Notes: generated by a model not told the origin, from the letters alone. DNA of 64,000 nucleotides from Candidatus Woesearchaeota archaeon CG10_big_fil_rev_8_21_14_0_10_44_13 (GCA_002762985.1 PCXZ01000034.1:8431-72430); one strand, 5' to 3'. Numbered from the stretch's first letter, positions 15,755 to 31,229 are shown. A program made the numbers and translations.

Positions 15755-15799
15755 TTATATATATCATAAATTATGATAATAATATCACAAAAAGTGATA
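15755..15799. promoter_or_regulatory. TATA box (tttatatatat) followed by two inverted repeats (atcataa-a-ttatgat; tatcac-aaaaa-gtgata) upstream of the gene at 15838
   Basis: Palindromes at 15763-15777 and 15783-15799 sit where the transcription start is expected, ~25 nt after the TATA box. Confidence 0.4.
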
Positions 15800-15837
15800 A
15801 TTTTCATATAAGAATAATTGAAAAAGAGAAAGCAAAA

Positions 15838-16398
15838 ATGCCTCTAAAAGAAGCCACATACAGGGAGAAGATACTTCTTTACCTAGCTAAGAACCCAGGC
15901 AATAATATAACGGGCAATAAGATATCGAATGACCTTGACCTGTTCTATTCCCTTGTCCATAAGACGATAAAAGACCTTGAGAAAGACGGCCTGCTGAAGA
16001 TAGAGAAAGTAGGCAATTACAAGCTCCTGAAGCTGAGCCTTGACAGGCACAGGACACTGCTCGAACTTGCTCTCCTGTCCCACAGGCTGAAAGAAGAGCG
16101 TGAGAAAGAAGGGAAGATTGACAGCAGGATAAACATGTTCTTGGGCAGGATAACAGGCGAGAAGGATGTCCTCTCGATAATACTTTCTGATAAGGATGTT
16201 TTCATCATCTCAAACAATGTGACGATGCACCTTGAGATAATGTCGAAGACAGCAGATATAGGCAAGGAGATCTCCATAATAAAACATGATGAGTTCGGCA
16301 GGATGCTTTCTGACGAGCAATTCGCAGGCAGGATGCTTGACGGAATCGTGCTTCACGGCTATGAAAACTTTTGGAGGATGATAGCTGAAATAAAGTAA
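15838..16398 (+). CDS. hypothetical protein with an N-terminal winged-helix-like region (putative transcriptional regulator)
   Basis: Start taken at MPLKEATYREKILLYLAKNPGNN...KISNDL, a wH-like region. The upstream ORF-track extension crosses the TATA box and is unlikely to be coding. Confidence 0.4.
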   Translation: MPLKEATYREKILLYLAKNPGNNITGNKISNDLDLFYSLVHKTIKDLEKDGLLKIEKVGNYKLLKLSLDRHRTLLELALLSHRLKEEREKEGKIDSRINMFLGRITGEKDVLSIILSDKDVFIISNNVTMHLEIMSKTADIGKEISIIKHDEFGRMLSDEQFAGRMLDGIVLHGYENFWRMIAEIK

Positions 16399-16435: not shown

Positions 16436-19400
16436 GTGGATTTAGATATAAGGGGCTTTTGCCCTGGGAAGAGCAAGAAAGCTCAGCTTGCAGCTTTCAT
16501 CATAATAGGGATTCTCGTGCTGGCCATGGCCGGTGCCATACTCTATTTAGTCACTTCTGCGAAAAAGACAGAGGCAGAGCTGATTGTCGAGAAAGGCATG
16601 GAGGTGAGCCTTGACGAGACGAAGATAAGGGAATACATTACCGCGTGCATACAGAAAGAAGGCAGGGGCCTGGTCGACAAGATAGGGCTGCAGGGCGGAA
16701 CACTGAACTTGGACCAGTTCAGGTATTATTTCAATATGAAATATAATTATCATTGTTATGCCCAAGATGGTTTCGTCTGTGTTAACAGGCTTGTGACAAG
16801 GAATTCCATGGCCCAGGAGCTAAATGCAGCATTGAAGAACAGCCTCAAGAAATGCGTGAATTTCGAGAATTTCAGGAAACAGGGATATGATGTGAAAGAG
16901 CAGGACATGGATGTCAAGACAATTGTAGGGGTGGATGATGTTGATTTTGAGGTGATATATCCCATAACAATCTCCAAGGACAACAATGAGGTCATCCTGA
17001 AAGATTTCAGCGAAAAAGTGGATTCAAGGCTCGGCTTGATGTATGACCTGGCTGTAAAAATAGTCTACCATCACTCTATGGGCGGGGAATTTGACGAGGA
17101 CAGATGGATGCTTGAACATGGCCAGATAAGCATCTCCAAACACAAGCCCTATCCTGACATCATCTATTCGCTGAGCATCAGGGATGCTGCAACCAAAAAA
17201 GAGGAATCCTTCAATTTCGCAATCAAGGGCAGATACTCAATCTATGAGATAGGGCAGCCCACAAAAACCCTTGTAAGCAAAGGATATTGCAGGACAAAGG
17301 ACAATAACTGCTATGTCAATGTAGATCAGGGAGACTGCGCAAAATCATTAGGAGAATGGAGCAATGCCCCTTTCCAGGACGCCCAATGCAGAGGCATGGG
17401 CACCATGCCAGAGCCGGAATGCAAAGGCGATGAATGCAAGAATTGCGGGAAAAGGGAGAACGGCGAATCATGGTGCGAATATGAAGGCATTGTGAGCCCC
17501 GGCTTCTCATTGGTCGGGTCGAGGCATTACAAGGGAAGCTGCATAAACGGCAAGATCTATTACACAGAATGCAGGGATTACCGTGAGGAGATATGCCTGG
17601 AGAACACAGACATAGATGTGCCTAAGGCAGTATGCAGGCCTAACAGATGGCAGGACTGCGCAGAGCAGGGGAATGAGGAGGATTGCATGGACAATTCTGC
17701 AAGGGACTGCTGGTGGTCTGGCTGGCTTGAACTCAACAGGCAGGGCAAGTGCCTGCCTTACATCCCCCCTGGATTTGCGCATTGGCAGCAGAACGGCCAG
17801 GAAGTTTGCGCCATGGCGAATGAGCAGTATGACTGCGGCTATTATACCTGCGGCAAATCATGGGTCGATTCGAGCGCAATATACTGCTACAATATGGGTG
17901 ACTGCGGGAATTACAGGAACACAGAAGATGAGATAACAAAACAGGGATTCTTCAATTTCGACAGCACGCCTTCAGATTATGTCTACCTGACAGATGATCA
18001 GCTGAAAACAGAGATGAAGCCAAAGCTTAAGATGGAAGCGGCGTATGCCCCTGTGCTTGACGGAAAAGAGTATGAAAACCCCCATGGAACAATAAACGAA
18101 TTGATCAATAATGAAGTGAGGTATTTTGATGAGGTTTCAAACTGGAGATTCGAGGATTTCAGGACTAATTACCTGCTTACTGGAAAGATTTACATCCATG
18201 TCCTGCAGACAGCATTGTGCATGCCGTGGCAGGCGCCATACAAAGGCGATGACTGCAAGGAATGCGGCAGCCTGAACAGGCCCTGCACAGAATACAAATG
18301 CAGGAGTTTGGGGCAGACATGCACTTATGAGGAAGTCAATGGAATAGGCTTCTGCTATGATTATTCTGAGAAGGATGATATCCCTCCTAAGATTTTCTTT
18401 GATGGTGTTGTGTTCGGTGATGTGAAGATAGAGAGGGATGTTTTCGGAAAAACAGTTGGTTACAAGTTCAGCAAGCCGCTTGAGCCGAACACAATTGTGG
18501 TATTCTCGATAAATGCGACAGAACCTGTGAAATGCAAAGTAACGTCATTGCCGCAGCCTGAATTCGACCAGATACCCCTTCCAGCGCCCGGCACATTCCA
18601 GGATTATTACACTTTTGTTGATATTGTGCCTAAGGCCCCTGATTTCAGGATAGGCCTGATGAAGTCTTTAGGGGTGAATAACTTCCTTGAGCTCGGCACA
18701 TTTGAAACATACGACGATAAGTTCAAAAAGATAATCTATGATGCCAGGAAATTCGTCAAGGAATTCAAAGGGGGCATGAACAAGGAATTTGCAGAGCAGA
18801 ACATACAGAGGCTTGAGAATATGTGGAATGATGACATCGCACCCAACATAAAGAAAGCCTTTGAAAACCTGGGCGATACACTGAGGGATGTGGCAGTGCA
18901 GACAGAGCAGGGCAACAAGCTTGTTTTCTTCAAATGCATAGACAAGGCAGGGAATGAGAACACTGAAGACCTGTTCATAAAATACAGGATAGGGAAGGAT
19001 GAAAGCGCCCCTGTACTGATGGCTGCATTGCCTGTCAACAACACGAACATAAGCAGTTTTGGAAATCTTTCGCTCTATACGAATGAGCCTGCGAACTGCA
19101 GGTTTGCAGGAAGCGACATGCCTTATGACTCCATGCCCTTGAAGACAGAGACAGAATGCACTCTGCCTCTGATGATTGGAGCATTTAAGCTCTATGAATG
19201 CACACCAAGGGATATCAATGCTTCAAGCGACATAAGAACAAACATATATGTCAGGTGCAAGGATAATCCATTAAAAGTCGAAAGGTACATATTCAATCTC
19301 ACGAAAGGCGATGCCCTCATTCATCTTTTCCCTGAAAATGCCATGACAATAGACCTCAGGGAGAATGACAGGATAATAAACCTCACAATGGAGTTCGAAC

Positions 19401-19702
19401 AATACTTCACATTCCCCAAGGTGAAAGATATAATGGTGAATGCGGATGAGTATGAGATGATAATACAGTCCATAAGGGATGATATTGACTGCGGGTTCTC
19501 GGAAACGCCGGGATTGAGCGTCAGCCAGATGGTACCCATGGCCTGTGAAAAAGGCGGCCTTGAAGGCACATACCAGTGCAGGCATAAGGTCAATGTCCAG
19601 AATAACATGCTCTTTGAGATAGCATGCAGAGGCAGATTCCAGGAAGAGAAAAGGAACACAGCAAAAGAGAGCGCAGTATTGAGCTATCTAAACCTTCCTT
19701 GA
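16436..19702 (+). CDS. giant Cys-rich secreted protein, paralog A (1088 aa), with a class-III/type-IV-pilin-like signal peptide
   Basis: N-terminal ...KSKKAQLAAFIIIGILVLAMAG. Paralogous to 26540..30277 through shared blocks (RHYKGSCINGKIYYTECRDYREEICLE, VCRPNRWQDC, CTEYKCRSLGQTCTYEEVNGIGFCY, CIDKAGNENTEDL). It has more than 60 cysteines. Confidence 0.7.
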   Translation: MDLDIRGFCPGKSKKAQLAAFIIIGILVLAMAGAILYLVTSAKKTEAELIVEKGMEVSLDETKIREYITACIQKEGRGLVDKIGLQGGTLNLDQFRYYFNMKYNYHCYAQDGFVCVNRLVTRNSMAQELNAALKNSLKKCVNFENFRKQGYDVKEQDMDVKTIVGVDDVDFEVIYPITISKDNNEVILKDFSEKVDSRLGLMYDLAVKIVYHHSMGGEFDEDRWMLEHGQISISKHKPYPDIIYSLSIRDAATKKEESFNFAIKGRYSIYEIGQPTKTLVSKGYCRTKDNNCYVNVDQGDCAKSLGEWSNAPFQDAQCRGMGTMPEPECKGDECKNCGKRENGESWCEYEGIVSPGFSLVGSRHYKGSCINGKIYYTECRDYREEICLENTDIDVPKAVCRPNRWQDCAEQGNEEDCMDNSARDCWWSGWLELNRQGKCLPYIPPGFAHWQQNGQEVCAMANEQYDCGYYTCGKSWVDSSAIYCYNMGDCGNYRNTEDEITKQGFFNFDSTPSDYVYLTDDQLKTEMKPKLKMEAAYAPVLDGKEYENPHGTINELINNEVRYFDEVSNWRFEDFRTNYLLTGKIYIHVLQTALCMPWQAPYKGDDCKECGSLNRPCTEYKCRSLGQTCTYEEVNGIGFCYDYSEKDDIPPKIFFDGVVFGDVKIERDVFGKTVGYKFSKPLEPNTIVVFSINATEPVKCKVTSLPQPEFDQIPLPAPGTFQDYYTFVDIVPKAPDFRIGLMKSLGVNNFLELGTFETYDDKFKKIIYDARKFVKEFKGGMNKEFAEQNIQRLENMWNDDIAPNIKKAFENLGDTLRDVAVQTEQGNKLVFFKCIDKAGNENTEDLFIKYRIGKDESAPVLMAALPVNNTNISSFGNLSLYTNEPANCRFAGSDMPYDSMPLKTETECTLPLMIGAFKLYECTPRDINASSDIRTNIYVRCKDNPLKVERYIFNLTKGDALIHLFPENAMTIDLRENDRIINLTMEFEQYFTFPKVKDIMVNADEYEMIIQSIRDDIDCGFSETPGLSVSQMVPMACEKGGLEGTYQCRHKVNVQNNMLFEIACRGRFQEEKRNTAKESAVLSYLNLP

Positions 19703-20422
19703 TTTCACAAGATAGATTGCCGATGAAACTGCAAATACCACTATGCTTACCCACTGTGAAAATGTAAGGCCCAGATAGTTGAATGGGTATTCCCTCAAGA
19801 ACTCTATCATGAATCTCCCTGCTGAGTAGACCATAAGGTATTTCAGGAATATCTGGCCGAAGAATCTCCTATTGTGCCATCCGGAATAAAGATGGGCGAA
19901 CAGAACGATGTTGAAAAATGAGAGGTAAAGGCCGACAGGATGTCTTGCAGTGCCGTCAGGAAGCTTGACTGCCCACCATACGCCTGTTATCCTGCCCAAT
20001 GCGTCATTCACAAAGAAGCACCCTATCCTGGCGAAGAAGATCTCCAATGGGATCGCCATGCCCCAGAAATCCAGATGCTTCCAGAAATTATAACGGTTTA
20101 TTCTTGTGTAGACATACCCCAATAAGATTCCGCCGAACAACCCCCCATAAAAGACAAAGCCCCTGTTGAATATGCCTAAGATGCCGGCGCTGCTGCATGC
20201 TTCGTAAGGCCCGATATAGAACAGCAGTTTAGAGCCCAGCCATGCCCCTGCAAAGACCCACAATGATTCAATTATCATTATCTTCGGATGGATCTTCTGC
20301 CTGCGGCCCATGCGGATCAGGAACAGCACACCTACCGCCATGCCTATGAAAGCGAAAAGAGAATGGGGGGGCGTCTTTATCAGCCAGAATTCCCACATCT
20401 CCTTCGGGATTAAAGGGATCAT
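19688..20422 (-). CDS. prolipoprotein diacylglyceryl transferase (Lgt) family protein, paralog 2
   Basis: FARIGCFFVNDALG...RHPVGLY aligns with the Lgt G-R-x-G-N-F-x-N and HPxQLY regions. The start is taken at the ATG (MIPLIPKEMW), which matches the paralogs' MIPYEI/MIEYEM starts. Confidence 0.75.
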   Translation of the reverse strand: MIPLIPKEMWEFWLIKTPPHSLFAFIGMAVGVLFLIRMGRRQKIHPKIMIIESLWVFAGAWLGSKLLFYIGPYEACSSAGILGIFNRGFVFYGGLFGGILLGYVYTRINRYNFWKHLDFWGMAIPLEIFFARIGCFFVNDALGRITGVWWAVKLPDGTARHPVGLYLSFFNIVLFAHLYSGWHNRRFFGQIFLKYLMVYSAGRFMIEFLREYPFNYLGLTFSQWVSIVVFAVSSAIYLVKSRKV

Positions 20423-20577
20423 TTTAGCCTCCAAAAACCAATAGTGAACATGATGGCGCCTATGGCTGCAATTGACAGGGAGAATGACTTGATTGAGCTT
20501 ATGTGCAGGAAGCCGAAATCGATCAAAAAACCTCCTGCTATGACAAGAGCGAGATTAAGCGTGTTTTTCCCCATCAT
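20419..20577 (-). CDS. 52-aa two-helix membrane peptide (MMGKNTLNLALVIAGGFLIDFGFLHISSIKSFSLSIAAIGAIMFTIGFWRLK), translationally coupled to lgt paralog 2
   Basis: Not in the ORF track because it is under 60 aa. I translated the reverse strand by hand. The TGA stop overlaps the Lgt ATG (ATGA), and the sequence is hydrophobic with Gly-zipper-like GxxxG/AxxxG. Confidence 0.3.
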   Translation of the reverse strand: MMGKNTLNLALVIAGGFLIDFGFLHISSIKSFSLSIAAIGAIMFTIGFWRLK

Positions 20578-20626
20578 CCAAAGAAGTTGCCCGATTTATA
20601 TAAAATAATCGTTTTTCAGGAAGCGG

Positions 20627-21199
20627 TCAGGATGGGTTTACGGTTGTTGCAACGCCATCTTGGATCGGTTGCGTGTTGCTGGAGCTGCCAGAGGTCTGCT
20701 GTACGTTCTCTTTCGCACCCCCCCCAGCGCAAGACGAGCAGCTGTCGCAGTTGATGACGCCCAGCATGTATAGGAGAAGCAGGACAAGGATGATTATTAT
20801 GACGGCGATTATGACCCAGAATAACAATGATCCTACAAAACCTGCTGTTGACGCTACAGCAGCAGCATCTAATGAGCCTTTGACTGCTACTCCTGTTGAT
20901 CCTAAAGTACCGCTCGAAGTTGATGAAACTGCGGAAAGAGATGAGGTAATTGAAGTGATTGATTGGCCAGCAGTCAAAGTTGTAAGGGTAGCAGTTTCAA
21001 CAAACGCTCTCACTCCTCTAGCCAATAGGGGGATTATAATAGCAGCGCATATTATCGCCAGCATTGTCATTTTCCTGACATTAAACTTTCTTTTCGGAGG
21101 CTCTTTCTTCAGCTTCCTTTCAGAGCTCTTGTGCCTGAAGACAGTCTTCTTTGAGAATAAACCAGGCTTAACGTCTCTTTTGAAGGATATTACGTGCAT
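20627..21199 (-). CDS. S/T-rich two-pass membrane protein ending in a C-terminal Cys motif (NCDSCSSCAGGG)
   Basis: Codon usage (AGG/AGA/AAG) matches the known genes better than the overlapping + strand ORF. A signal-anchor (alternative start MTMLAIICAAIIIPLL at 21070) is followed by a Ser/Thr low-complexity segment and a second TM, then the CDSCSSC tail. It is the middle gene of the rSAM - this protein - peptide - lgt minus-strand string. Confidence 0.35.
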   Translation of the reverse strand: MHVISFKRDVKPGLFSKKTVFRHKSSERKLKKEPPKRKFNVRKMTMLAIICAAIIIPLLARGVRAFVETATLTTLTAGQSITSITSSLSAVSSTSSGTLGSTGVAVKGSLDAAAVASTAGFVGSLLFWVIIAVIIIILVLLLLYMLGVINCDSCSSCAGGGAKENVQQTSGSSSNTQPIQDGVATTVNPS

Positions 21200-21229
21200 G
21201 AGATTGTTATAGCAAGGGAGTATTTAAAT

Positions 21230-22204
21230 TTATTGTATAATCTTCTCCTTCTTCAGGTCAGAGACGCAGTCATGGCAGAACGAAACGCCGTACTTCCTTA
21301 TGCTCTTCTGCCTGCCGTCATAAGTGGCTTTGTCTATCCTCTCGCTCAACTTTGTCCTGTAGTCTGTCTCTAAAAAATGCTTCAGGTCGCCATGCTTCTT
21401 GTATCTGTAATAGCTTAGCTGAGGGATATTGCAGCAGACCCCGAAGCTTCCGTCAGGGAAAACTATGACCCCTCTGTCCAGGACAGAGCATACTTCCTCG
21501 CTGTGGCTGCCTAACCCTAAGAAAATCTGCTTCCCCTGCTCCCTGTACAGCTGAGAGATCCTGTAGGCCATATTGAAATAAAAGTTCATGTCTTCCTCTT
21601 TTGACAGGGTTTCCCTTTCTGTGGCTCCTCCCTGGGGGATTGCCCTGTACAAGGTCAATTTATCTGCGCCTAATTTAGTGAAGATGAAATCTGCTGTCCT
21701 CGGGATATCAGCAAGATTCTCTTTTGTCACGAGAGTTATGAAGCTGGCTCGTGAGGGTCTTGTCATTGCCCATGACCTTAATGCCCCCTCATAGGAGCCT
21801 TTGCCCCTCAATCTGTCATTCTTTTCCTGATCATAAGAATCGAGCGATATGGTGAGAGCCAGCTTCCTTATCCTGGCTAATCTTAGGAAATCGTTTGTTT
21901 TGAGATTGACGCCATTGGTCACAATGTCCATCTCAAATCCCAATGCAGCAGCATATTCGATTATGTCAAAGAATTTGGGATGGGTTGTAGGCTCGCCTCC
22001 TGAAAAGCTGACTGACTTGTACCTGAGCTCTTTCGCCTCTTTCAGCATCTCTTTGGCTGTCTCAAGATCCATTGAGCCTTTCTTCCCCTTGTACAGGCAA
22101 TGCTTGCAGTCCAGGTTGCAGTCGTATGTAAGGAAGATAGAGAGCCACCTGTCAAATCTTGCCCTGGATATTATATCCTCAAGAATCCCCTTCGAAAAAA
22201 GCAT
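21230..22204 (-). CDS. radical SAM enzyme with a SPASM/twitch C-terminal domain
   Basis: CNLDCKHC (CxxxCxxC), SFSGGEP, and C-terminal ...GVCCNIP...FCHDCVSD cysteines. Confidence 0.75.
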   Translation of the reverse strand: MLFSKGILEDIISRARFDRWLSIFLTYDCNLDCKHCLYKGKKGSMDLETAKEMLKEAKELRYKSVSFSGGEPTTHPKFFDIIEYAAALGFEMDIVTNGVNLKTNDFLRLARIRKLALTISLDSYDQEKNDRLRGKGSYEGALRSWAMTRPSRASFITLVTKENLADIPRTADFIFTKLGADKLTLYRAIPQGGATERETLSKEEDMNFYFNMAYRISQLYREQGKQIFLGLGSHSEEVCSVLDRGVIVFPDGSFGVCCNIPQLSYYRYKKHGDLKHFLETDYRTKLSERIDKATYDGRQKSIRKYGVSFCHDCVSDLKKEKIIQ

Positions 22205-22287
22205 TCAGGGCATTAAACGAACATTGTTTATATATTTTTTTGTTGAAAATTGATAATATTAATAAAACAGGGAGGATATCCCAGGAT

Positions 22288-23244
22288 ATGATCCCTTACG
22301 AAATCCACAAGATACTCTTCAAGATAGGGGACAGATTCGCGATCTTCACATGGGGTGTGATGTTCGCAATCGCCTGGATCTTCGCAGGCTATTTCATATA
22401 TATGAATGCGAAGAGCAATAAGGATGTGGATATTAACAAGGCGATGCAGTTCCTGCTTGCAACTTTTGTCGGCGTCCTCTTCGGCTCAAGGCTTTTCCAT
22501 TACTTCGGCCCATGGGGCTATGGAAGCTTCTATGAACGGATAAAACTCATGTTCTCGCCGAAAGGGGGCTGGGTCGCTTACGGAGGGATAATCTTCGGGT
22601 TGGTCTTTTCATATGCGTACTCAAAGATGAAGAAGATAAATTTCCTGAGATACTGCGATATCCTTGCACCGGCGATACCTTTGGGCCTTTTCATGGGCAG
22701 ATTCGGCTGTTTCCTTGCGGGCTGCTGTTTCGGCGCAGAAACCAATGTCCTGTGGGCGATCGAAAGATTCGGGACAACCATCCATCCATCGCAGCTTTAT
22801 GCTGCATTTGCAGAGCTCATCGTCTTCGTTATTATGCTGGAATTGGCCAGGAGGCACAAGGCAGAGAGGAGATATGACGGATATCTGGTCTTCTCGGCGA
22901 TATTGCTCTACTCCATAGCAAGATTCATGACTGAATTCTTCAGGGGGGATTATGGGATTAATGTCTATCATTTCGGATTCACGTTCTCCCAGCTCATATC
23001 GATCATATTGGTCATCTTTTTCGGGACGATGATGCTGCTGAATCAGGGGAAGAGCAGAGGGGCTGTCCCGAAGATAGACAAAGACATGAAATTGAGCTAT
23101 CTGCTCGTCTCCGGCGGAGGCATGCTGAGCATAATCTCGCTGCTGTTCGTCAACATGGACATCGAGATCATGATTGCGCCTTTCGCCTTCGGATTATTGA
23201 TCCTGTTCAGGGGGCTGATGGCCTACACAAGCAGCCATAATTGA
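22288..23244 (+). CDS. prolipoprotein diacylglyceryl transferase (Lgt) family protein, paralog 3
   Basis: Collinear with E. coli Lgt. [13 protein letters not shown] matches [37 protein letters not shown] matches [42 protein letters not shown] matches [24 protein letters not shown] matches IIVEFFRQPD. The start is taken at ATG 22288; the track's TTG start at 22159 reads across a TATA box. Confidence 0.85.
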   Translation: [318 protein letters not shown]

Positions 23245-23313
23245 ACCGGAACCAAAAATCATAAGATTAATATATCCGCTCAAAAAATCCATTGGGATTG
23301 AAAAGGGCTGAAA

Positions 23314-24303
23314 ATGATAGAATATGAGATGCTGAAATATGTCACAATAGGCGGATTAAAGATAGGCTTCTGGTTCACAACACATTATCTCATCGCATGG
23401 CCATTCGCAGCATATTATATCATAAAAGAAACATTAAGGAAAAGAAATTTCGACAAGGGCCTTGATCTTAACAGGATGCTGCAGATGTTCCTCTTGGCTT
23501 TTGTAGGTTCTTTCGTTGGATCAAGGATCTTTGCATTCTATGGTCCCTGGGGCGGAAGTTGTGCAAGCGGGGGGTTTGTAGAAAGGTTCATGCAGATGAT
23601 AAGCCTTGAACAGAAAGGCTGGGTTGCGATAGGGGGGATCATAGGTGGGATCGTCTTCACGTTTGTCTACTCAAAGATCACCAAGTTGAAGTATATGAGA
23701 TATGCGGATATCCTTGCGCCTGCAATAGCTCTCGGATTTTTCATCGCAAGACTGGGATGTTATATCGCCGGCTGCTGTTTCGGCTCCCAGACAGATGTCC
23801 CTTGGGCGATAATAAAAGACAATGTGCCAATACATCCAACACAGCTCTATAACTCCCTGGTAGACCTTGCAATTTTTGTTGTTCTGGTCTGCCTTAGCGA
23901 AAGGAAAGAAAAGAAGAACAGGCAGGATGGCTATGTCTTATCATCGTTCGTGTTCATGTATGCGGTGGGCAGGTTCACGACAGAATTTTTCAGGGGGGAT
24001 TATGACCCTTCAAATTATTTCTTCGGCCTTACGACAACGCAGATAATATGCATTGTATTCTTCCTGATTTCAGCCACATTGATCATAATAAACTCATTGA
24101 AAGAATCCCCGAAAAAGAGGGTAAAGACAGGCTTCCGCATAAGGCCGAAGACCTATGCATTATTGGTTTCAGGAGGCATAATCGCAAACATAGGCGCTTA
24201 TATCATAACCCCTCTGCCTTATCTTGCATTGATAGTCATACCATCGGGCCTTGGAATCTTCTTTTTCGGCCTTACGACAATCTTCTCAAAACCAAAAAAT
24301 TAA
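23314..24303 (+). CDS. prolipoprotein diacylglyceryl transferase (Lgt) family protein, paralog 4
   Basis: [54 protein letters not shown] and [11 protein letters not shown] are the same signature blocks as in paralog 3. Confidence 0.85.
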   Translation: [329 protein letters not shown]

Positions 24304-24321
24304 TAAAGAAGTAATGCCTTT

Positions 24322-25377
24322 TTGCAGATGCAGATGGCAAAAAAGAAGGCTGAAAAAGAAGCGAAAGCGAATAGGATAAGCAAGACAACGATAATTCTTT
24401 ATGCTGCTGTCATATTGATATCAGTCATTTTTCTCAGCGTGATGAGCGCAGGCCAGTCAAGCGGGGGCGGAGGTGGATGCTGTGACTGCAGCGAATGCAG
24501 GTGCATATGCTGCGAGAGCTGCCTGAATTGCGACAAGGGATGCAGGAAAGATTGCGGTTGTATGTCTGAACAATATGCAGGTGTGGTTGTAGTTGATCCT
24601 TATACAAATGCTGCAATGAATGGCAATGATTATTACTGCAAACGCGGAGGACCGCCGCCAGTGCCTCCTGAGCCGCAATGCGATTGTTATGAAACGCAGC
24701 CATGCCCTCTCATAGAAGGGGTATGCAAGCTTGCAAAGGACAAATGCGTGTATGGGACTGCCGGCGTTGCATACACTTGCGAATGGGAAGGATGCGATGC
24801 TGAAGTTTACGGCCCTCTCTACCAGTTCGACGAGGACAAGTGCGACGGAAATGACAATGACTGCGACGGAGACAAGGACGAAGGATGCGATGAGGACAAG
24901 GATGGTTTCTGCAACAATGATCTCGAGTGCAGCTCTGGAAAATACAACTGCGGAGATTCGGAACCGGGAGTCTCTGTAGGGACAGATGAATGCACAGACT
25001 GCGATGACAGCAATCCTTTGGTTCATCCAAGGGCATCCGAAGTCTGCGACGGAATTGATAATGACTGCGATTATGAGGTTGATGAGGGATGCGAATGCAG
25101 CCCGCTAGGAGCAGAGAAATTATGCGAGAACCAGAAAGGGGTCTGCGCAGGCATGAAAAGGATATGCAAATCATGCACAGACATAGAATGTGATGCTGGC
25201 CAGCACAGCAAATGGATAGGGTGCTCTTACAGCTCATCAAAAGTGGAAGGCTATAAGAAGCCTGAAGGCGATTCATGGTACTGTGCAGACAATCTTGACA
25301 ATGATTGCGACGGAAAGACAGACTGCGAAGACTCCGGATGCTTCCCTTACTGCCAGACGCCTATACCAACTTCTTAA
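24322..25377 (+). CDS. membrane-anchored Cys-rich protein with three 'DNDCDG'-type putative metal-binding repeats
   Basis: A TM helix is followed by GGGGGCCDCSECRCICCESCLNCDKGC. The repeats are KCDGNDNDCDGDKDEGCDEDKDGFC, VCDGIDNDCDYEVDEGCEC and YCADNLDNDCDGKTDCEDSGC. Confidence 0.6.
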   Translation: MQMQMAKKKAEKEAKANRISKTTIILYAAVILISVIFLSVMSAGQSSGGGGGCCDCSECRCICCESCLNCDKGCRKDCGCMSEQYAGVVVVDPYTNAAMNGNDYYCKRGGPPPVPPEPQCDCYETQPCPLIEGVCKLAKDKCVYGTAGVAYTCEWEGCDAEVYGPLYQFDEDKCDGNDNDCDGDKDEGCDEDKDGFCNNDLECSSGKYNCGDSEPGVSVGTDECTDCDDSNPLVHPRASEVCDGIDNDCDYEVDEGCECSPLGAEKLCENQKGVCAGMKRICKSCTDIECDAGQHSKWIGCSYSSSKVEGYKKPEGDSWYCADNLDNDCDGKTDCEDSGCFPYCQTPIPTS

Positions 25378-25526
25378 GAGTATTTTTCATTATTTTTCCC
25401 AAAAAAACAATAATGTGCAGATATTGCCCTTCACCCCTCTAAAATGACTAAAAACATTTAAATGGGTATTTAAATATACCCCCTAAAATGCTACAAGAAA
25501 CGTTGCTTTCTTGTGATAAGTAGAAG

Positions 25527-26462
25527 GTGCAGTACATGAACCAGCAGCTTGTGAGTTACATACAGCAGCAGCTAAGAAGCGGCTATGACTTAAACTCAAT
25601 CAAAAGCTTTCTCATCCAACAGGGCTATAATGTGAAGGATGTTGAAGAATCTGTGTCCTTTGTGAACCAGCAGAGGCTTTCTTCCCTTGTCGATTATATA
25701 AGGTCCTCATTGGGCAGAGGCATTGATCCTGACACATTAAGGGCTCAATTATCCTCCTCAGGGTATCCTATGCCTGACATAAATGAAGCATTGTCGAAGG
25801 CGACGAAAAGAGGCTCGAAATTCCCCTCATCAGCAGTTCTCATAATTCTTGTAGCATTGGTTATATTTGGGCCAGGGTTGTTCTATTTCTGGCCTTCCAG
25901 CAAGGCTGGAGGAACAACCGGCCCGGATATAACCGAAACAGGGACTGGCGCAGAAGACCAAGGCATAGCATTCGAAAAAAATCCGACAGTGAGCGCTGAA
26001 ACACCCCCTCCTCAGGAAGAGATAGGACAAGAGGCAGTGCGGGATACAGGAACGGCAGAAGAAGAGGATTTCCAGATTCCTCCTGCAGCAGAGCAGCCCT
26101 CCGCAGAACAGGTTGATTTCGCCTCTGAAACCTCTGATTTCGAAAGCCTAATGGACCGGGCATCGAAAGAGACAGATGCTGAAAGGGCGATGGACATCTG
26201 CAGCAAGGCCGAGAATTCCATGTACAAGGATGCATGCTATGACCAATTGTCAAAATCATTCGATAATTCAGCGATATGCGCAAAGATAGAGGATGAGGAG
26301 ATAAGGGACCAGTGCTATCTCAGGGTTGTGCTCAAGAACAAGGATTACAGCCTATGCGAGAACATCGTCGATTCAAACCTTTACAACTCATGCCTGTCAA
26401 TGCAGAAAACCCCTCCTGCAGAGAACATGACCCTTGATGACCTTGGTGAGATGGGCGTTTAG
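25527..26462 (+). CDS. hypothetical membrane protein: two ~35-aa N-terminal repeats, one TM, an acidic low-complexity linker, and a C-terminal Cys-containing domain
   Basis: The internal repeat is QQQLRSGYDLNSIKSFLIQQGY / IRSSLGRGIDPDTLRAQLSSSGYPM. The TM is AVLIILVALVIFGPGLFYFW. A E/T/G-rich segment follows, then a C-terminal 6-Cys region. Confidence 0.4.
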   Translation: MQYMNQQLVSYIQQQLRSGYDLNSIKSFLIQQGYNVKDVEESVSFVNQQRLSSLVDYIRSSLGRGIDPDTLRAQLSSSGYPMPDINEALSKATKRGSKFPSSAVLIILVALVIFGPGLFYFWPSSKAGGTTGPDITETGTGAEDQGIAFEKNPTVSAETPPPQEEIGQEAVRDTGTAEEEDFQIPPAAEQPSAEQVDFASETSDFESLMDRASKETDAERAMDICSKAENSMYKDACYDQLSKSFDNSAICAKIEDEEIRDQCYLRVVLKNKDYSLCENIVDSNLYNSCLSMQKTPPAENMTLDDLGEMGV

Positions 26463-26539
26463 ACAGGTACATGATTATAGATAATCATATCGCAACCGGA
26501 ATATCACGATCAAAACACAATCAAAAAAGAGCAGATAAG

Positions 26540-29500
26540 ATGAACGGAAAAAAGAGGTGCAAGAAAGGCCAGATGGCTGCATTTGTCCTTATAGGGCTTA
26601 TCCTGCTGATAGGCTCTGCTGCGCTCACTTATGTTCTTTATGTTGCAAAAAAAGCCCCAAGCGATCAGTATTTCCTCGAGCAGCTGCCGGAATCCCTTGA
26701 CAAGACTTCCCTTGATACATTGATGAGATCGTGCATAAAAAAAGTCTCTGATCCTGAGCTTATCAGGATCGCCAAGTACGGCGGGACCATAAGTCCGAAA
26801 GTTAATGAATACCGGACCTATAACAAGACAAGATACAGGTATCTTTGCGACCAGAAGCCTGGCTATACTGAATGCGTGAACAAGATACTCACAAGGGAAA
26901 GCATGCAGGAAGAGCTTCAGGACAAGATAACTGTCGAGGTCGCAGCATGCATGAGTCCGGCGCTGAAATTCTATGAGGACAGGGGATATGAGATAAAATC
27001 AAGCCAGCCTAGCACAAAGGTGATAATAGCCCCTGATGATGTCAACGTCATAGTCAATTATCCTCTTGTCGTCTCAAAAGATGCCACAAAGATAAACACG
27101 ATGGATTATTCTGTGCAGTTCGATTATCCTCTCGGCAAATTGTATGACCTTGCCATGGAGATACTGAACAGCGAGAACAGCGCGGGATATTTCAACCAGG
27201 AAGGATGGATGTTCAACCACAGCATAGAGGTGTTGATACAGAAGCACAGGCCTTATCCTGATGTGACCTATAAGCTGAGCAAGTATGACTGGGAGAAGAA
27301 AGAGCATTATGTCTTCAATTTCGCGCTGCAGGGATATGACAGGCTGCCTGAGCTTGCTGGCCTCGGGTCTTTAGGGTCCAGCGGGCAGATGATAGCATCT
27401 CCTGCTGCTGCCAGATCAAATGCTTATGACCAGAACATGGGATGCTGCAACAACAAGAAAGACGGGAATTGTTTTGAGAATGCAGACAAGAGCTCATGCA
27501 TGAACAACGGCCTTGAATTCAGGACAGGGACATGCGCGCAGAGCGGATTCACGTGCAAGCCCATATCAGAGGATAAGTTCGACAACAGGACAGGGCTCTG
27601 CTATGGCAGGAGATGCAATGCGTGCATGAACGGCACATATGAGTATGGGGACAATGTGAACGATCCTTCCACTTACAGCGGCCCTGCAAAGATGAACGGC
27701 GAGTCCTGGTGCTCGTATGAAGGGCCGAGCGGCCAGGGCCTTGATGCAGTGGGCTCAAGGCATTACAAGCAGATCTGCGTAGACGGGTCAATGCTCGTAG
27801 AGGAATGCGGCGATTACAGGACAGACATCTGTGTTGAACAGGCAGAGACCATAAACGGAAGGCAGATGACAAGGGCTGTCTGCAGGCCGAACAGGTGGCA
27901 GGACTGCCATCTCTTCGGGAGCAACCAGGCAGAATGCACAGACACAGGCAAGAGAGACTGCTATTGGAATGTATTCCAGGATAATTTCCTATTGGGGAAA
28001 CCTCGCGATCAGAGCGAACCAGGCACAGTCACTTCATATGAGGAGAGGCATTGCGCGCCTCAAGTCCCGCCCGGATTGAGATTCTGGAATACTTTGGAAG
28101 GGATGCAGGTCTGCGGATGGGCGAACAATTATTATGAATGCGCTGCTCCGGGATGCTTCCAGGAATGGACCGAGTTCGATGCCATCTACTGCGCAATGCA
28201 GGGAGACTGCGGCATCTACAGGAATTACCTCGGAAAGCTGCCTGAGCTCTCATTGAACAACCTATTCCCTGGAGCAGGGCAATTGCCCGGCGTAGGCACA
28301 AGCTCTATGGGCGGAGGATTCGTGAGCGCGCCGAACCTCATCAATAACCAGATATACGAGCTAGTCCTCCCCAATGCGCAGAATTTCGCGCTTAAGACGT
28401 ACCAAAAGGCGGGAAAGCTGCCATCATATCCTAAAGAGTGGTACCCGAAAACAGTCACTCCTGACATGTTCATACATAACTCCCCGAATGATTATTCCAT
28501 GCTTGGCATCATGAGCTTCTTCCAGAGGTTCGTCGATTGGGGCATGGACAAGCTCAACAATATCGAGGATGACATATGGGACCTCATAGTCCATGGTGAA
28601 TCCATGGAATGGACGGCTCTTGGCGTGAGCATGTGCAATGTCTGGACTCCGAGCACTTCAGCGATCGACTGCGAGAAATGCAACGGCAATCCTTACAGGC
28701 CATGCACGGAATACAAATGCAGGAGCCTTGGCATGTACTGCAATTATGAGGAGATAGACGGAGTGGGCAAATGCTCTTCATATGAGACGTCCACTATAGG
28801 AAAGCCTGTTGTGCAGTTCGACGGCCAGATAACGCCTGGCTACACTACCAAAGGATCGACATTGGCTTCTTCAGATACTGCTTATGTGGGAAAAGAGATA
28901 ATCGAAGCATTGAAGACAGATTATACATTCCAGATAAAGACGAACAGGGAAACCCAATGCATGCTCACTGTAGTGCCCGGAGCATCGTTCGGAATGAACC
29001 CTCCTTTCCCAGGGACAGCGACAGACTACAGCTTCAGGACAAAGCATAATCTCACAATACCTTATACGACTGCTGACGGGCTCTCTGTGATGCTATTGCC
29101 TCTCCAGCTGATGAGCATGATCAGTTTCAATCCTGACCAGATCTGGGCGATATTCAATAACATGGCGAACAGGATAATAACTTATATGGAAGACCTGACT
29201 GATGACTGCAATGACTGCAATGACTGGGATCCGAGCACTGGTTGCGGTAACATCGGCCTTATGGCCCTGAGCAATGATGACTGCGATGAGATGGAAGACA
29301 AGACTGACCAGATCAAGAGCATGTTCTCGCAGATAACTGATTTCTGGCAGAATACAGTAAAGCCGGAAGTGGAGAAGTGGCTGAACACGGCGCAGAAGAA
29401 TGCCATCGATGAGGTATTGAATTATGCCGTTGCCCAGCACAAATACCATGCGTTCGTGAAATGCAGGGACAGGGGGGGGAATGAGAATGAAGTAGACCTT

Positions 29501-30277
29501 GATTTCATAAGGTTCAAGATCAGCCCCAATCCATTGGCTGCTGCACAGGTCCCGGACGGGCCTCCTATTGTAAGGGCGATCGAGCCTCAGAACTGGACAG
29601 AGCAGAGCCCTGATGAAGCAGGCAGGAAAGAGGTCTATGTTTACCTTAATCAACTGTCTGAATGCGCTTATGGCACATCAGACCAGGAATTCATTTACAT
29701 GAATAACAAGTTCCAGTGCCCGAAATCAACATATTACGGCGGCCTTGCAGGAGGATATGTCTGCAATTCAAGCAGACCTTTCGATGAATTGAAGAACCCT
29801 GGCGCGCCGATATACATCAAATGCATAGACCATCCTGAACATTATGAGACATTCAGCTTCAGGCTTGAGCAGGGGACAGAATACGCAGGACCGCAGAGAT
29901 CCGAATGGATAAAGCCAATCACAGAAGGCGAACCAGGCACAGTCATAATAAAGGACCCTAAAACGATAAACCAGAGCATGGAGAAGATAACCGTACCGAG
30001 CATGAGCGTGAAATTCTTCATTGAATTCAAGAGGCAGGAGAACGACAATGAGAAGGCTCTTGAATGCAGATATGCGCCTACGCAGGCAGGGGCCTCTTCA
30101 GGCACGACATTCGTCGATCCCAAGAGCGGAGGCACGCAATGCGACAACTGCACAGCTCTGCTGACTGCGACAGGCACGGACTATTATGTATGGTGCCATT
30201 TCAAGACAGAGCAGAGGAACGCAGGCCAGGCATACCAGTATGTGCTGCAGGAAGCCGCTGCTGAAGCCACGACATGA
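26540..30277 (+). CDS. giant Cys-rich secreted protein, paralog B (~1245 aa from ATG 26540), with a class-III/type-IV-pilin-like signal peptide
   Basis: N-terminal MNGKKRCKKGQMAAFVLIGLILLIGSAALTY. It shares the same conserved blocks as paralog A (RHYKQICVDG...CGDYRTDICVEQ, VCRPNRWQDC, CTEYKCRSLGMYCNYEEIDGVGKCS, CRDRGGNENEVDL). Confidence 0.7.
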   Translation: MNGKKRCKKGQMAAFVLIGLILLIGSAALTYVLYVAKKAPSDQYFLEQLPESLDKTSLDTLMRSCIKKVSDPELIRIAKYGGTISPKVNEYRTYNKTRYRYLCDQKPGYTECVNKILTRESMQEELQDKITVEVAACMSPALKFYEDRGYEIKSSQPSTKVIIAPDDVNVIVNYPLVVSKDATKINTMDYSVQFDYPLGKLYDLAMEILNSENSAGYFNQEGWMFNHSIEVLIQKHRPYPDVTYKLSKYDWEKKEHYVFNFALQGYDRLPELAGLGSLGSSGQMIASPAAARSNAYDQNMGCCNNKKDGNCFENADKSSCMNNGLEFRTGTCAQSGFTCKPISEDKFDNRTGLCYGRRCNACMNGTYEYGDNVNDPSTYSGPAKMNGESWCSYEGPSGQGLDAVGSRHYKQICVDGSMLVEECGDYRTDICVEQAETINGRQMTRAVCRPNRWQDCHLFGSNQAECTDTGKRDCYWNVFQDNFLLGKPRDQSEPGTVTSYEERHCAPQVPPGLRFWNTLEGMQVCGWANNYYECAAPGCFQEWTEFDAIYCAMQGDCGIYRNYLGKLPELSLNNLFPGAGQLPGVGTSSMGGGFVSAPNLINNQIYELVLPNAQNFALKTYQKAGKLPSYPKEWYPKTVTPDMFIHNSPNDYSMLGIMSFFQRFVDWGMDKLNNIEDDIWDLIVHGESMEWTALGVSMCNVWTPSTSAIDCEKCNGNPYRPCTEYKCRSLGMYCNYEEIDGVGKCSSYETSTIGKPVVQFDGQITPGYTTKGSTLASSDTAYVGKEIIEALKTDYTFQIKTNRETQCMLTVVPGASFGMNPPFPGTATDYSFRTKHNLTIPYTTADGLSVMLLPLQLMSMISFNPDQIWAIFNNMANRIITYMEDLTDDCNDCNDWDPSTGCGNIGLMALSNDDCDEMEDKTDQIKSMFSQITDFWQNTVKPEVEKWLNTAQKNAIDEVLNYAVAQHKYHAFVKCRDRGGNENEVDLDFIRFKISPNPLAAAQVPDGPPIVRAIEPQNWTEQSPDEAGRKEVYVYLNQLSECAYGTSDQEFIYMNNKFQCPKSTYYGGLAGGYVCNSSRPFDELKNPGAPIYIKCIDHPEHYETFSFRLEQGTEYAGPQRSEWIKPITEGEPGTVIIKDPKTINQSMEKITVPSMSVKFFIEFKRQENDNEKALECRYAPTQAGASSGTTFVDPKSGGTQCDNCTALLTATGTDYYVWCHFKTEQRNAGQAYQYVLQEAAAEATT

Positions 30278-30427
30278 ATAATCTGATAGTCGCTTCAATT
30301 ATATTCCGAGAGATGAGAGATTAAACCCGGCAATTTTCAATAAAAAAACTTGATAAGATTAATATCTTGATCGGACATCTTGAGATATTCCATAAAATAT
30401 TTAAACAATATGAGGTTTTTTTGCAAT

Positions 30428-31174: not shown

Positions 31175-31229
31175 GGTTCCATTAAATCATCTGGATCAAT
31201 CATCTGAATCGACAAGAGGGAAAAGAAGA

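What the first reader, a model, noticed from the sequence alone, without database searches (positions are those of the whole stretch)
16436..30277. Surface-protein island: two giant Cys-rich pilin-signal proteins bracket three Lgt paralogs, a SPASM radical SAM and Cys-motif membrane proteins
A 14-kb block holds two paralogous 1088-aa and ~1245-aa secreted proteins. Each has more than 60 cysteines and a class-III signal (KKAQ/KKGQ followed by a 20-residue hydrophobic helix). They flank, in this order: lgt paralog 2, a peptide-maturase-type radical SAM, lgt paralogs 3 and 4, a protein with DNDCDG Cys-repeats, and a repeat-containing membrane protein. None of the large proteins has a lipobox. The Lgt-family enzymes may therefore act on something other than classical lipoproteins. 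In a small-genome archaeon this looks like a dedicated, uncharacterised cell-surface or host-attachment system.
Basis: partly seen in the sequence, partly recalled or inferred. Interest (0 to 1): 0.85.

Follow-up and report, generated by a model that had tools for sequence, protein, structure and literature searches.

The report
Woesearchaeal surface-protein and Lgt gene cluster
A small-genome archaeon keeps two giant pilin-signal surface proteins next to bacterial-type lipoprotein lipid transferases (Lgt) and short proteins with a cysteine cluster beside the membrane; the trio recurs in relatives, and Lgt homologues were recently reported not to have been identified in archaea.

Summary
The block is real, with corrections. 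G1 and G2 are full-length paralogues (27% identity) with 43 and 49 cysteines, not more than 60. The radical SAM enzyme has only an abbreviated SPASM/twitch-like tail. A fourth Lgt lies upstream.

The giants belong to a large Woesearchaeota/Nanoarchaeota family with no Pfam model: 12,036 cluster representatives and at least 554 genome loci. All 54 aligned members carry a short basic leader, [KR][KR][AGS], an invariant Gln, then a hydrophobic helix. That is a prepilin-type (class III) site. No peptidase, ATPase or platform gene was found nearby.

All four Lgt paralogues keep the essential Arg143/Arg239 pair and most other key residues. Their RxGCxxxGCC signature is a common bacterial variant.

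Relatives do carry classical lipobox proteins. Lgt genes are strongly linked to neighbouring proteins with a juxtamembrane Cys cluster (odds ratio 24, p = 4e-9), about half with canonical lipoboxes. LgtD–MopE-like–H–G2 and G1–Lgt–memC–rSAM are each conserved in relatives.

Best reading: a cell-envelope cluster where Lgt paralogues lipidate neighbouring poly-Cys proteins that accompany modular pilin-like giants. Attachment to a host is untested.

The parts
7433..8320 (+).
   Evidence: PF01790 E 2.5e-21. R143, R239, Y235 and H196 kept.
8329..15678 (-). Upstream context cluster: methyltransferase, two rSAM genes (one SPASM), GT2, BchE/HpnJ-like B12-rSAM, a 159-aa unknown, a nucleotidyltransferase and an FPP/GGPP synthase
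   Evidence: Orthologues of the B12-rSAM lie next to giants or Lgt genes in L005, L007, L012, L014, L020, L031 and L087.
15709..16398 (+). Winged-helix regulator directly upstream of G1
   Evidence: HTH_11/HTH_24/MarR_2 hits.
16436..19702 (+). Giant G1 (1088 aa, 43 Cys). Residues 1-42: class III-like leader plus hydrophobic helix. Residues 57-275: alpha/beta N-domain. Residues 276-520: disulfide-rich module. Then a helical hairpin and Ig-like sandwiches.
19688..20434 (-). Lgt paralogue B, convergent with G1 and overlapping its 3' end
   Evidence: PF01790 E 3.4e-37. Residues checked. The relative L083 also has an Lgt in the module.
20419..20574 (-). 51-aa ORF with two hydrophobic helices
   Evidence: Called by JGI. 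Translation. A 51-aa gene also precedes a truncated ORF whose closest match is LgtB in L086.
20627..21199 (-). memC: membrane protein whose last helix is followed at once by GVINCDSCSSC (juxtamembrane Cys cluster)
   Evidence: Homologue in L086 (GVINCSSCMSGC). Analogue in L083 (FSSCGDGCGDGCGDGCGSC) lies between the rSAM and Lgt genes.
21230..22204 (-). Radical SAM enzyme with an abbreviated SPASM/twitch-like tail
   Evidence: PF04055 E 1.2e-22 with no PF13186 hit. Cys at 29/33/36 and at 239/257/258/310/313. Narrow family.
22288..23244 (+). Lgt paralogue C (core plus a ~60-aa C-terminal extension with two helices)
   Evidence: PF01790 E 8e-46.. Orthologues in L089 and L090.
23314..24303 (+). 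Lgt paralogue D (41% identical to C, same extension)
   Evidence: PF01790 E 6e-46.. Orthologues precede MopE-like genes in L087, L088 and L090.
24322..25377 (+). MopE-like Cys-rich protein: signal-anchor helix, Gly linker, CCDCSECRCICC cluster, then three DNDCDG motifs
   Evidence: PF11617 E 2.6e-13. 43 Cys. Conserved N-terminal architecture in L025, L036, L087 and L090.
25527..26462 (+). H: single-pass membrane protein with a cytoplasmic two-repeat N-domain; the conserved upstream partner of giants
   Evidence: 12 H-like genes lie within 2.5 kb of giants. 49% identical orthologue in L087.
26540..30277 (+). Giant G2 (1245 aa from the JGI start, 49 Cys), with the same architecture as G1
   Evidence: Orthologues in L025, L033 and L087.
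30380..31973 (+). ABC-2 permease plus ABC ATPase
   Evidence: PF12679 and PF00005. An ABC ATPase lies within 2.5 kb of giants in 9 cases.
32162..34946 (+). SecF and SecD
   Evidence: PF02355. Syntenic in L025 and L033.
46139..50336 (+). Split relative of a giant: a 338-aa class III plus N-domain protein, followed by a 1072-aa Cys-containing protein with PG_binding_1

Best explanation
This is a cell-envelope gene cluster of a Woesearchaeote, built from two copies of a recurring trio. Each trio has a giant modular pilin-like surface protein, a bacterial-type Lgt enzyme, and a small membrane or secreted protein with a cluster of cysteines immediately outside its signal or anchor helix.

Shown by the sequence:
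- G1 and G2 have a short basic leader, [KR][KR][AGS] then Gln, and a ~22-residue hydrophobic helix.
- This is followed by an alpha/beta N-domain, a disulfide-rich module and Ig-like domains.
- The Lgt paralogues keep the Arg143/Arg239 pair plus Tyr235, His196, Glu243 (Asp in LgtA), Arg246, Gly104 and Gly154.

Inferred:
1. The giants are inserted through Sec (SecDF lies next door) and cut before the Gln by a class III signal peptidase encoded elsewhere. They then sit on the surface by their N-terminal helix, or at a type-IV-filament-like structure, together with the partner protein H and an ABC-2 transporter.
2. The Lgt paralogues transfer a glyceryl-lipid from a membrane phospholipid to a Cys thiol of the neighbouring poly-Cys proteins: LgtC/D to the MopE-like protein, and LgtB to memC.
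3. The rSAM may further modify memC's Cys motif.
4. The lipidated poly-Cys proteins are components or anchors of the same surface assembly.

Relative to L087, the segment 15.7-22.2 kb (regulator, G1, LgtB, memC, rSAM) is an extra module inserted between the polyprenyl synthase gene and the LgtD–MopE–H–G2 operon.
For: - Paralogy of the giants.
- Family size and taxonomy: at least 150 database homologues, all of the named ones but two labelled Woesearchaeota/Nanoarchaeota and the two exceptions labelled bacterial; at least 554 GTDB species-genome loci; 12,036 representatives at E <= 1e-3; no Pfam or NCBIfam model.
- Conserved prepilin-type site with invariant Gln.
- In a distant clade, the N-domain with this signal is a separate 255-aa gene. 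It lies between Sec-signal Cys-rich giants and is followed by four small class-III-like proteins and the S-layer gene. This operon is conserved in more than 10 loci.
- High-confidence models: pLDDT 85 for full-length G1 and 96 for the N-domain. They have Ig-like C-terminal domains and no close solved relative.
- Lgt membership and residues. The GCC signature is common in annotated bacterial Lgt.
- Woesearchaeal Lgt proteins form one clade in a crude NJ tree, with LgtC and LgtD orthologue pairs.
- Lgt is enriched near giants: 12 genes in 869 kb of flanks, density decaying with distance, in 11 of 77 loci and several arrangements.
- Juxtamembrane Cys-cluster proteins: 20 among 1108 genes, and 10 of them lie within two genes of an Lgt (odds ratio 23.7, Fisher p = 4e-9). 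About half have canonical lipoboxes.
- Conserved LgtD–MopE–H–G2 order in L087, L088 and L090.
- Conserved giant / rSAM / memC-like / Lgt set in L083 despite rearrangement.
- A DsbA-like gene in the window fits extracytoplasmic disulfide formation.
Against: - No class III signal peptidase, TFF ATPase or platform gene was found in the window or in the flanks examined.
- Pfam Class_IIIsignal matches only at E 0.94.
- 66 of 77 giant loci show no Lgt within the available flanks.
- The window's own poly-Cys proteins lack a canonical lipobox (GGGGGCC and GVINC).
- memC's topology is ambiguous, so its Cys cluster could be cytoplasmic.
- All four Lgt proteins score below the NCBIfam equivalog cut-off, and H103, N146, E151 and Y26 are replaced.
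- The loci used for the statistics are phylogenetically related, so p-values are optimistic.
- No Lsp homologue was seen (using a query sequence recalled from memory).
- There is no experimental data.
Confidence: 0.5

Rival explanations
1. Incidental neighbourhood. The Lgt paralogues are housekeeping lipoprotein transferases for all lipoproteins of the cell. The giants are unrelated surface or S-layer-associated proteins. They share a general envelope-biogenesis region (SecDF, ABC, lipid genes) through inherited synteny, not as a dedicated system.
For: - 66 of 77 giant loci have no Lgt within the available flanks.
- Classical lipoproteins of many kinds occur across the loci.
- SecDF and GGPP synthase are housekeeping genes.
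- The G2-side synteny is seen mainly in close relatives.
Against: - Lgt density near giants (about 14 per Mb) is well above what 1-4 copies per ~1 Mb genome would give, and it decays with distance.
- Proximity survives at least five different gene arrangements.
- There are four paralogues within 17 kb here.
- Linkage of Lgt to poly-Cys proteins is tight.
- The same gene set is kept in L083 after rearrangement.
Confidence: 0.25
2. The Lgt-family paralogues have a non-lipoprotein substrate. They might modify the giants themselves, or remodel or transfer scavenged lipids in a lipid-auxotrophic symbiont.
For: - No canonical lipobox protein in the 64-kb window.
- Paralogue expansion and an extra two-helix extension in LgtC/D.
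- Neighbours include GGPP synthase, B12-rSAM, GT2 and, in L012, a UbiA prenyltransferase.
- Scores are below the equivalog cut-offs.
Against: - The essential residues for the Lgt reaction are kept.
- The signature variant is ordinary among bacterial Lgt.
- The giants have no conserved Cys near the membrane helix; the first invariant Cys is residue 71.
- In relatives, the gene next to Lgt is often a textbook lipobox protein.
Confidence: 0.1
3. RiPP-like or cofactor maturation sub-cluster. The rSAM with memC and LgtB makes a thioether-crosslinked (ranthipeptide/SCIFF-like) or metal-binding Cys-rich membrane peptide, and the giants are bystanders.
For: - rSAM and a memC-like Cys-motif protein are adjacent here, in L083 and in L086.
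- The tail is SPASM/twitch-like.
- The best NCBIfam hits are peptide or cofactor maturases, though far below cut-off.
Against: - No family-level match.
- memC is a 190-282 aa membrane protein, not a short leader-core peptide.
- The 51-aa ORF is just two hydrophobic helices.
- The rSAM is absent from nearly all other giant/Lgt loci.
Confidence: 0.1

Closest known systems
Bacterial Lgt (phosphatidylglycerol:prolipoprotein diacylglyceryl transferase, PF01790; E. coli structures 5AZB/5AZC)
   Same: - Strong Pfam membership.
- Seven-helix core alignable over its whole length.
- R143, R239, Y235, H196, E243, R246, G104 and G154 are kept (E243 is Asp in LgtA).
- The RxGCxxxGCCxG signature is shared with many annotated bacterial Lgt.
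- Lipobox proteins are encoded next door in relatives.
   Different: - The host is archaeal.
- There are four paralogues.
- The periplasmic head domain is missing.
- H103, N146, E151 and Y26 are replaced.
- LgtC/D carry an extra two-helix tail.
- Scores fall below the NCBIfam equivalog cut-offs.
- The neighbouring candidate substrates have poly-Cys clusters and, in this window, non-canonical lipoboxes.
- The lipid donor in an archaeal membrane is unknown.
AliA/AliB archaeal lipoprotein lipidation (Haloferax volcanii; PMC12462473)
   Same: It serves the same presumed purpose, lipid attachment to Cys of secreted archaeal proteins. That paper predicts abundant lipoproteins in DPANN archaea.
   Different: AliA has only marginal similarity to Lgt. 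The paper states that no archaeal Lgt homologues had been identified. The proteins here are unambiguous PF01790 members. Whether this genome also has AliA was not tested.
Modular minor pilins and PilY1-type tip adhesins of type IV filaments (for example Streptococcus sanguinis PilB/PilC and Pseudomonas PilY1 with its minor pilins) — from general knowledge
   Same: - A prepilin-type N-terminus is fused to a large non-pilin adhesive module.
- In the distant clade, large Sec-secreted proteins are encoded with four small pilin-like proteins.
   Different: - No sequence or confident fold homology.
- No ATPase, platform or peptidase gene nearby.
- +5 is Phe, not Glu.
- A ~14-residue low-confidence linker separates the hydrophobic helix from the globular domain.
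Sulfolobus bindosome substrate-binding proteins with class III signal peptides — from general knowledge
   Same: These are large non-filament surface proteins that use a prepilin-type signal, and so may stay anchored rather than polymerise.
   Different: The domains are unrelated. The bindosome has its own assembly ATPase and membrane protein, which were not seen here.
SPASM/twitch radical SAM maturases of Cys-rich peptides (SCIFF/ranthipeptide type)
   Same: CX3CX2C core, a C-terminal auxiliary-cluster Cys motif, and an adjacent Cys-motif protein.
   Different: No PF13186 hit, only 5 tail Cys, every NCBIfam hit far below cut-off, and the neighbour is a membrane protein rather than a short precursor.

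Membership tests
Lgt (PF01790 / TIGR00544) | Match to the Pfam LGT model above the gathering score | tested here: met
   76.5-157.2 bits against a cut-off of 24.9 for all four paralogues.
Lgt (PF01790 / TIGR00544) | NCBIfam equivalog score (TIGR00544 cut-off 118.9 bits) | tested here: not met
   83.6, 106.6 and 99.7 bits for B, C and D. NCBI names LgtD 'hypothetical protein'.
Lgt (PF01790 / TIGR00544) | Essential Arg143 and Arg239, plus Tyr235, His196, Glu243, Arg246, Gly104 and Gly154 (E. coli numbering; E. coli sequence recalled and checked against the 5AZB alignment) | tested here: met
   All are kept in A-D, except that E243 is D and D129 is E in LgtA.
Lgt (PF01790 / TIGR00544) | His103, Asn146, Glu151 and Tyr26 of the E. 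coli enzyme | tested here: not met
   They are replaced by Y/I/V, C/D, C/D and W/F/L/A. However, N146C/E151C (GCxxxGCC) is the majority variant among the nearest bacterial Lgt.
Lgt (PF01790 / TIGR00544) | Lipobox-bearing substrate proteins in the organism | tested here: inconclusive
   There are none with a canonical lipobox in the 64-kb window. There are many in relatives, often adjacent to an Lgt or a giant. The whole genome was not available.
Lgt (PF01790 / TIGR00544) | Transfer of a glyceryl-lipid to a Cys thiol | not testable with these tools
   Needs biochemistry or mass spectrometry.
Archaeal class III (prepilin-type) signal peptide proteins | Short basic leader, [KR][GAS] cleavage site, then about 20 hydrophobic residues at the extreme N-terminus (FlaFind-type pattern, from general knowledge) | tested here: met
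   54 of 54 have Gln at +1, 53 of 54 have A/G/S at -1, 50 of 54 have K/R at -2, and the median leader is 6 aa. 67 giants in the loci match a strict pattern.
Archaeal class III (prepilin-type) signal peptide proteins | Match to Pfam Class_IIIsignal (PF04021) | tested here: not met
   The best match is E 0.94, 10 bits against a cut-off of 23.7, on one of six N-terminal fragments.
Archaeal class III (prepilin-type) signal peptide proteins | Cognate prepilin peptidase (PibD/FlaK/EppA, Peptidase_A24) in the genome | tested here: inconclusive
   None in the window or in the multi-TM neighbours sampled.
Type IV filament systems | Assembly ATPase and platform protein genes in the neighbourhood | tested here: not met
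   Not found in the window or in L067.
Type IV filament systems | Pilin fold of the domain that follows the N-terminal helix | tested here: inconclusive
SPASM/twitch radical SAM | CX3CX2C radical SAM core | tested here: met
   C29, C33 and C36; PF04055 E 1.2e-22.
SPASM/twitch radical SAM | SPASM domain (PF13186; seven-Cys motif) | tested here: not met
   No PF13186 hit at E <= 0.1. There are five tail Cys: CX12GX4C, an adjacent C, then CX2C. The Cys spacing is similar to that of window rSAM 10089-11162, which JGI does mark as SPASM.
MopE-type metal-binding motif (PF11617) | Pfam match above cut-off | tested here: met
   50.4 bits against a cut-off of 27. Orthologues in L087, L088 and L090 are marked the same way.
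AliA/AliB (arCOG02177) | Presence of an arCOG02177 protein | not tested

The most novel reading that the evidence does not exclude
Woesearchaeota (DPANN) run a bacterial-type, Lgt-dependent protein lipidation pathway that has expanded into paralogues. Each paralogue is dedicated to a neighbouring class of membrane-proximal poly-Cys proteins, possibly lipidated on several Cys. These proteins anchor or organise giant modular-pilin adhesins used for cell-cell contact. This would be the first Lgt pathway in Archaea and a new type of lipoprotein.
Probability: 0.25. Interest if true: 0.8.

Novelty: new variant of a known kind. Interest (0 to 1): 0.62.

Why it matters
- A 2025 study of archaeal lipoproteins states that no archaeal Lgt homologues had been identified, and it proposes AliA/AliB instead.
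- Here, unambiguous PF01790 proteins sit on archaeal contigs. They are physically linked to genes found almost only in Woesearchaeota, appear to form a single Woesearchaeal clade, and lie next to lipobox proteins. This makes the question of how DPANN archaea lipidate their predicted lipoproteins directly testable.
- The giants define a very large surface-protein family with no Pfam model (about 12,000 cluster representatives). It has a prepilin-type signal and good structural models, in organisms whose lifestyle probably depends on surface contact.
- The link between Lgt and juxtamembrane poly-Cys proteins did not turn up in the literature searches run here. It offers concrete substrates for experiments.

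Tried and rejected
- An exact-sequence look-up of LgtD found nothing, for reasons unknown. The source was obtained through P0001 and P0121 instead.
- The afdb50 library was unavailable.
- A profile of the giants against PDB sequences found nothing, and nothing was found for H.
- Pfam on N-terminal fragments gave only sub-threshold Class_IIIsignal and Tad hits.
- A search for a prepilin peptidase, Lsp, or TFF ATPase/platform in the window and selected neighbours found none.
- The 51-aa ORF was considered as a RiPP precursor and rejected, because it is two hydrophobic helices with no Cys.
- The rSAM was considered as a general partner of the giants and rejected. Among the 80 surveyed loci, only one weak hit was found (L007).
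- The GCC signature was considered as a sign of new chemistry and rejected, because it is common in bacterial Lgt.
- The window's other ~1070-aa protein (47118-50336) was considered as a third giant paralogue and rejected, since there is no similarity to G1. Its upstream 338-aa neighbour does carry the N-domain.
- Literature searches for Lgt or the giant family in Woesearchaeota or DPANN found nothing specific.

Full report
**What is there.** ORF listing and translation, with the JGI gene calls for the identical public contig Ga0066639_10000073, give this order:

| Gene | Coordinates |
|---|---|
| HTH regulator | 15709-16398 + |
| G1 | 16436-19702 + |
| LgtB | 19688-20434 - |
| 51-aa two-helix ORF | 20419-20574 - |
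| memC | 20627-21199 - |
| rSAM | 21230-22204 - |
| LgtC | 22288-23244 + |
| LgtD | 23314-24303 + |
| MopE-like | 24322-25377 + |
| H | 25527-26462 + |
| G2 | 26540-30277 + |
| ABC-2 permease and ATPase | 30380-31973 + |
| SecF/SecD | 32162-34946 + |

Upstream, on the minus strand, lie a methyltransferase, two rSAM genes, GT2, a BchE/HpnJ-like B12-rSAM, a nucleotidyltransferase and an FPP/GGPP synthase. A fourth Lgt (7433-8320, + strand) lies just beyond them. The organism is a Woesearchaeote: a 100%-identical protein is named Ca. Woesearchaeota archaeon CG10_big_fil_rev, and the window carries fibrillarin and Nop56/58.

**Check of the observation.** G1 and G2 are paralogues over their full length (27% identity, E 4e-116). 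They have 43 and 49 Cys, not more than 60. The three Lgt genes are clear PF01790 members. The rSAM has the CX3CX2C core but no Pfam SPASM hit and only five tail Cys. The DNDCDG protein matches PF11617 and has 43 Cys in 351 residues. Neither giant has a lipobox.

**The giants.**
- A database search found at least 150 homologues. All of the named ones but two are labelled Woesearchaeota/Nanoarchaeota (the two exceptions are labelled bacterial), and none has a Pfam domain.
- A scan of one genome per GTDB species found at least 554 loci, often several per MAG.
- A profile search of 1.84 billion cluster representatives found 12,036 hits at E <= 1e-3 and 1,764 at E <= 1e-30.
- In an alignment of 54 members, Gln17 is invariant. 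Position -1 is A/G/S in 53, -2 is K/R in 50, +5 is F/Y in 52 and +9 is Gly in 52. The median leader is 6 residues. This is the anatomy of a prepilin-type (class III) signal and is far more conserved than a plain signal anchor would need.
- Pfam's Class_IIIsignal model matches only at E 0.94.
- AlphaFold2 gives a confident model of G1 (pLDDT 85, pTM 0.76): hydrophobic helix 14-42, a low-confidence linker, an alpha/beta N-domain 57-275, a disulfide-rich region, a helical hairpin and Ig-like sandwiches.
- Sequence profiles find no solved relative.

**The N-domain as a separate module.** The N-domain with its signal also occurs alone. In the window, a 338-aa protein (46139-47155) carries it (E 4e-28) and precedes a 1072-aa PG_binding_1 protein. 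In a distant Woesearchaeal clade (L060-L082), a conserved operon reads as follows:
1. A Cys-rich giant with a Sec signal.
2. A 255-aa class III N-domain protein.
3. A second Cys-rich giant.
4. Four small proteins (about 165, 325, 180 and 140 aa) with class-III-like N-termini.
5. The S-layer protein (PF05124).

This is shown. It resembles minor-pilin plus large-adhesin sets of type IV filaments, and it makes G1/G2 look like fused 'modular pilins'. No peptidase, ATPase or platform gene was found nearby.

**The Lgt paralogues.**
- Aligned to E. coli Lgt (sequence recalled, then checked against the 5AZB alignment), all four keep R143, R239, Y235, H196, R246, G104 and G154. B, C and D also keep D129 and E243.
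- H103, N146, E151 and Y26 are replaced, and the head domain is missing.
- The RxGCxxxGCCxG signature is the majority form among the nearest database Lgt, including annotated bacterial enzymes.
- In a crude NJ tree, the Woesearchaeal Lgt proteins (with one exception) form a single clade beside these. LgtC and LgtD each have orthologues in L089 and L090.
- All score below the NCBIfam equivalog cut-offs.
- A 2025 paper states that no archaeal Lgt homologues had been identified. I found no paper noting them in Woesearchaeota.

**Neighbourhood survey.** I searched all ORFs of the 80 genome-contig loci, plus L002, with the window's proteins and mapped genes.
- Lgt genes lie within 10 kb of a giant in 11 of 77 loci: 12 genes in 869 kb of flanks, at 1.9, 1.7, 1.1 and 0 per 100 kb in successive 2.5-kb bins. 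They occur in at least five arrangements.
- H-like genes (12) and ABC ATPases (9) are the tightest neighbours of giants. The B12-rSAM recurs as well.
- Some relatives have no Lgt nearby.

**Lipobox proteins and poly-Cys proteins.** A PROSITE-style lipobox scan shows that Woesearchaeota do have textbook lipoproteins. Many lie directly beside a giant or an Lgt, and many have extra Cys right after the lipobox, for example IIGCSENGCSC, AGCCCEEED and SGCDCSCSEDD. I defined a juxtamembrane Cys cluster as at least 3 Cys within 12 residues shortly after a hydrophobic helix. By that definition, 20 of 1108 genes qualify. Ten of the 20 lie within two genes of an Lgt (54 such genes). The odds ratio is 23.7 and Fisher p = 4e-9. 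The loci are related, so this p-value is optimistic. The window's MopE-like protein and memC both qualify, but their lipoboxes are not canonical.

**Two modules.**
- In L087, the order is B12-binding, polyprenyl synthase (78% identical), then on the other strand an LgtD orthologue (49%), a MopE-like protein, H (49%) and a G2 orthologue (55%). L088 and L090 confirm the Lgt(-Lgt)-MopE order.
- The segment 15.7-22.2 kb of the window is therefore an extra module.
- Its gene set recurs in L083 as giant (36% identical to G1), then on the other strand rSAM (46%), a memC-like protein (FSSCGDGCGDGCGDGCGSC), and a convergent Lgt.
- The rSAM family is otherwise very narrow.

**Interpretation.** The best-supported reading is a cell-envelope cluster built from two giant / Lgt / poly-Cys-protein trios, plus H, an ABC-2 transporter and SecDF. 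The sequence features and the gene linkage are shown. The following are inferred: cleavage by a class III peptidase, lipidation of the poly-Cys neighbours by the Lgt paralogues, any role for the rSAM, and any physical complex or host-contact function.

**Rivals.** The first rival is an incidental envelope neighbourhood with housekeeping Lgt (0.25). The second is a non-protein or giant-directed Lgt activity (0.1). The third is a RiPP-like rSAM sub-cluster (0.1).

**Novelty.** This is a new variant of known kinds: the Lgt lipoprotein pathway and class-III-signal surface proteins, here in an archaeal, paralogue-expanded, poly-Cys-linked form. It also contains a large protein family that has no Pfam model and that I did not find described.

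Noticed in passing
window 8001-12000: GC drops to 0.30-0.33 against about 0.45 elsewhere. The low-GC stretch covers the methyltransferase, two rSAM genes and GT2, which suggests an acquired sub-island within the upstream cluster.
   Followed up: partly
window 12096-13616 (-): A BchE/HpnJ-like B12-binding radical SAM gene (220 bits to BchE, below cut-off). Its orthologues (E down to 1e-183) repeatedly sit next to giants and Lgt genes in relatives (L005, L012, L014, L020, L031, L087). Its function is unknown; it could act on lipids.
   Followed up: partly
window 46139-50336 (+): A 338-aa protein with the class III motif and the giants' N-domain is followed by a 1072-aa protein with 32 Cys and a peptidoglycan-binding domain (PG_binding_1). 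This is a split counterpart of a giant, and the PG-binding domain is odd in an archaeon.
   Followed up: partly
window 57075-61854 (+): An ABC ATPase, a 457-aa unknown protein and two MacB_PCD/FtsX permeases. The arrangement is LolCDE/MacB-like, which is notable beside an Lgt-rich region.
   Followed up: no
window 43998-45026 (-): A thioredoxin/DsbA-like protein, consistent with extracytoplasmic disulfide formation for the many Cys-rich secreted proteins. A DsbA-like gene also lies near the giant in L002.
   Followed up: no
L060-L082 (e.g. L067 6767-19928): A distant-clade operon: two Sec-signal giants with 58-72 Cys, a 255-aa class III N-domain protein, four small class-III-like proteins, then the S-layer gene (PF05124). 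It is conserved in more than 10 loci.
   Followed up: yes
L037, L038, L039, L044, L056 (gene just downstream of the giant, minus strand): A small Cys-rich classical lipoprotein of 100-145 aa is encoded convergently, right after the giant. The proteins in L037, L039 and L056 are homologous to one another. There is no counterpart in the window, where LgtB occupies that position.
   Followed up: partly
L008 3935-9757 (+): A 1940-aa secreted protein with 141 cysteines lies directly upstream of the giant and next to an Lgt and a small lipoprotein.
   Followed up: no
L012 5072-5872; L012, L014, L036: A UbiA-family prenyltransferase lies between the Lgt and the B12-rSAM. A SpoIIM-like membrane protein recurs a few genes from the giants.
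   Followed up: no
window 16460-16465 and 26555-26560; L025: G1, G2 and the L025 orthologue each have a Cys inside the basic leader, upstream of the putative cleavage site (RGFCPGK, KKRCKKGQ and KKRCRKAQ). Its significance is unknown.
   Followed up: no
window + L002-L090 (about 1.35 Mb): No homologue of signal peptidase II was detected with E. coli LspA as the phmmer query.
   Followed up: partly
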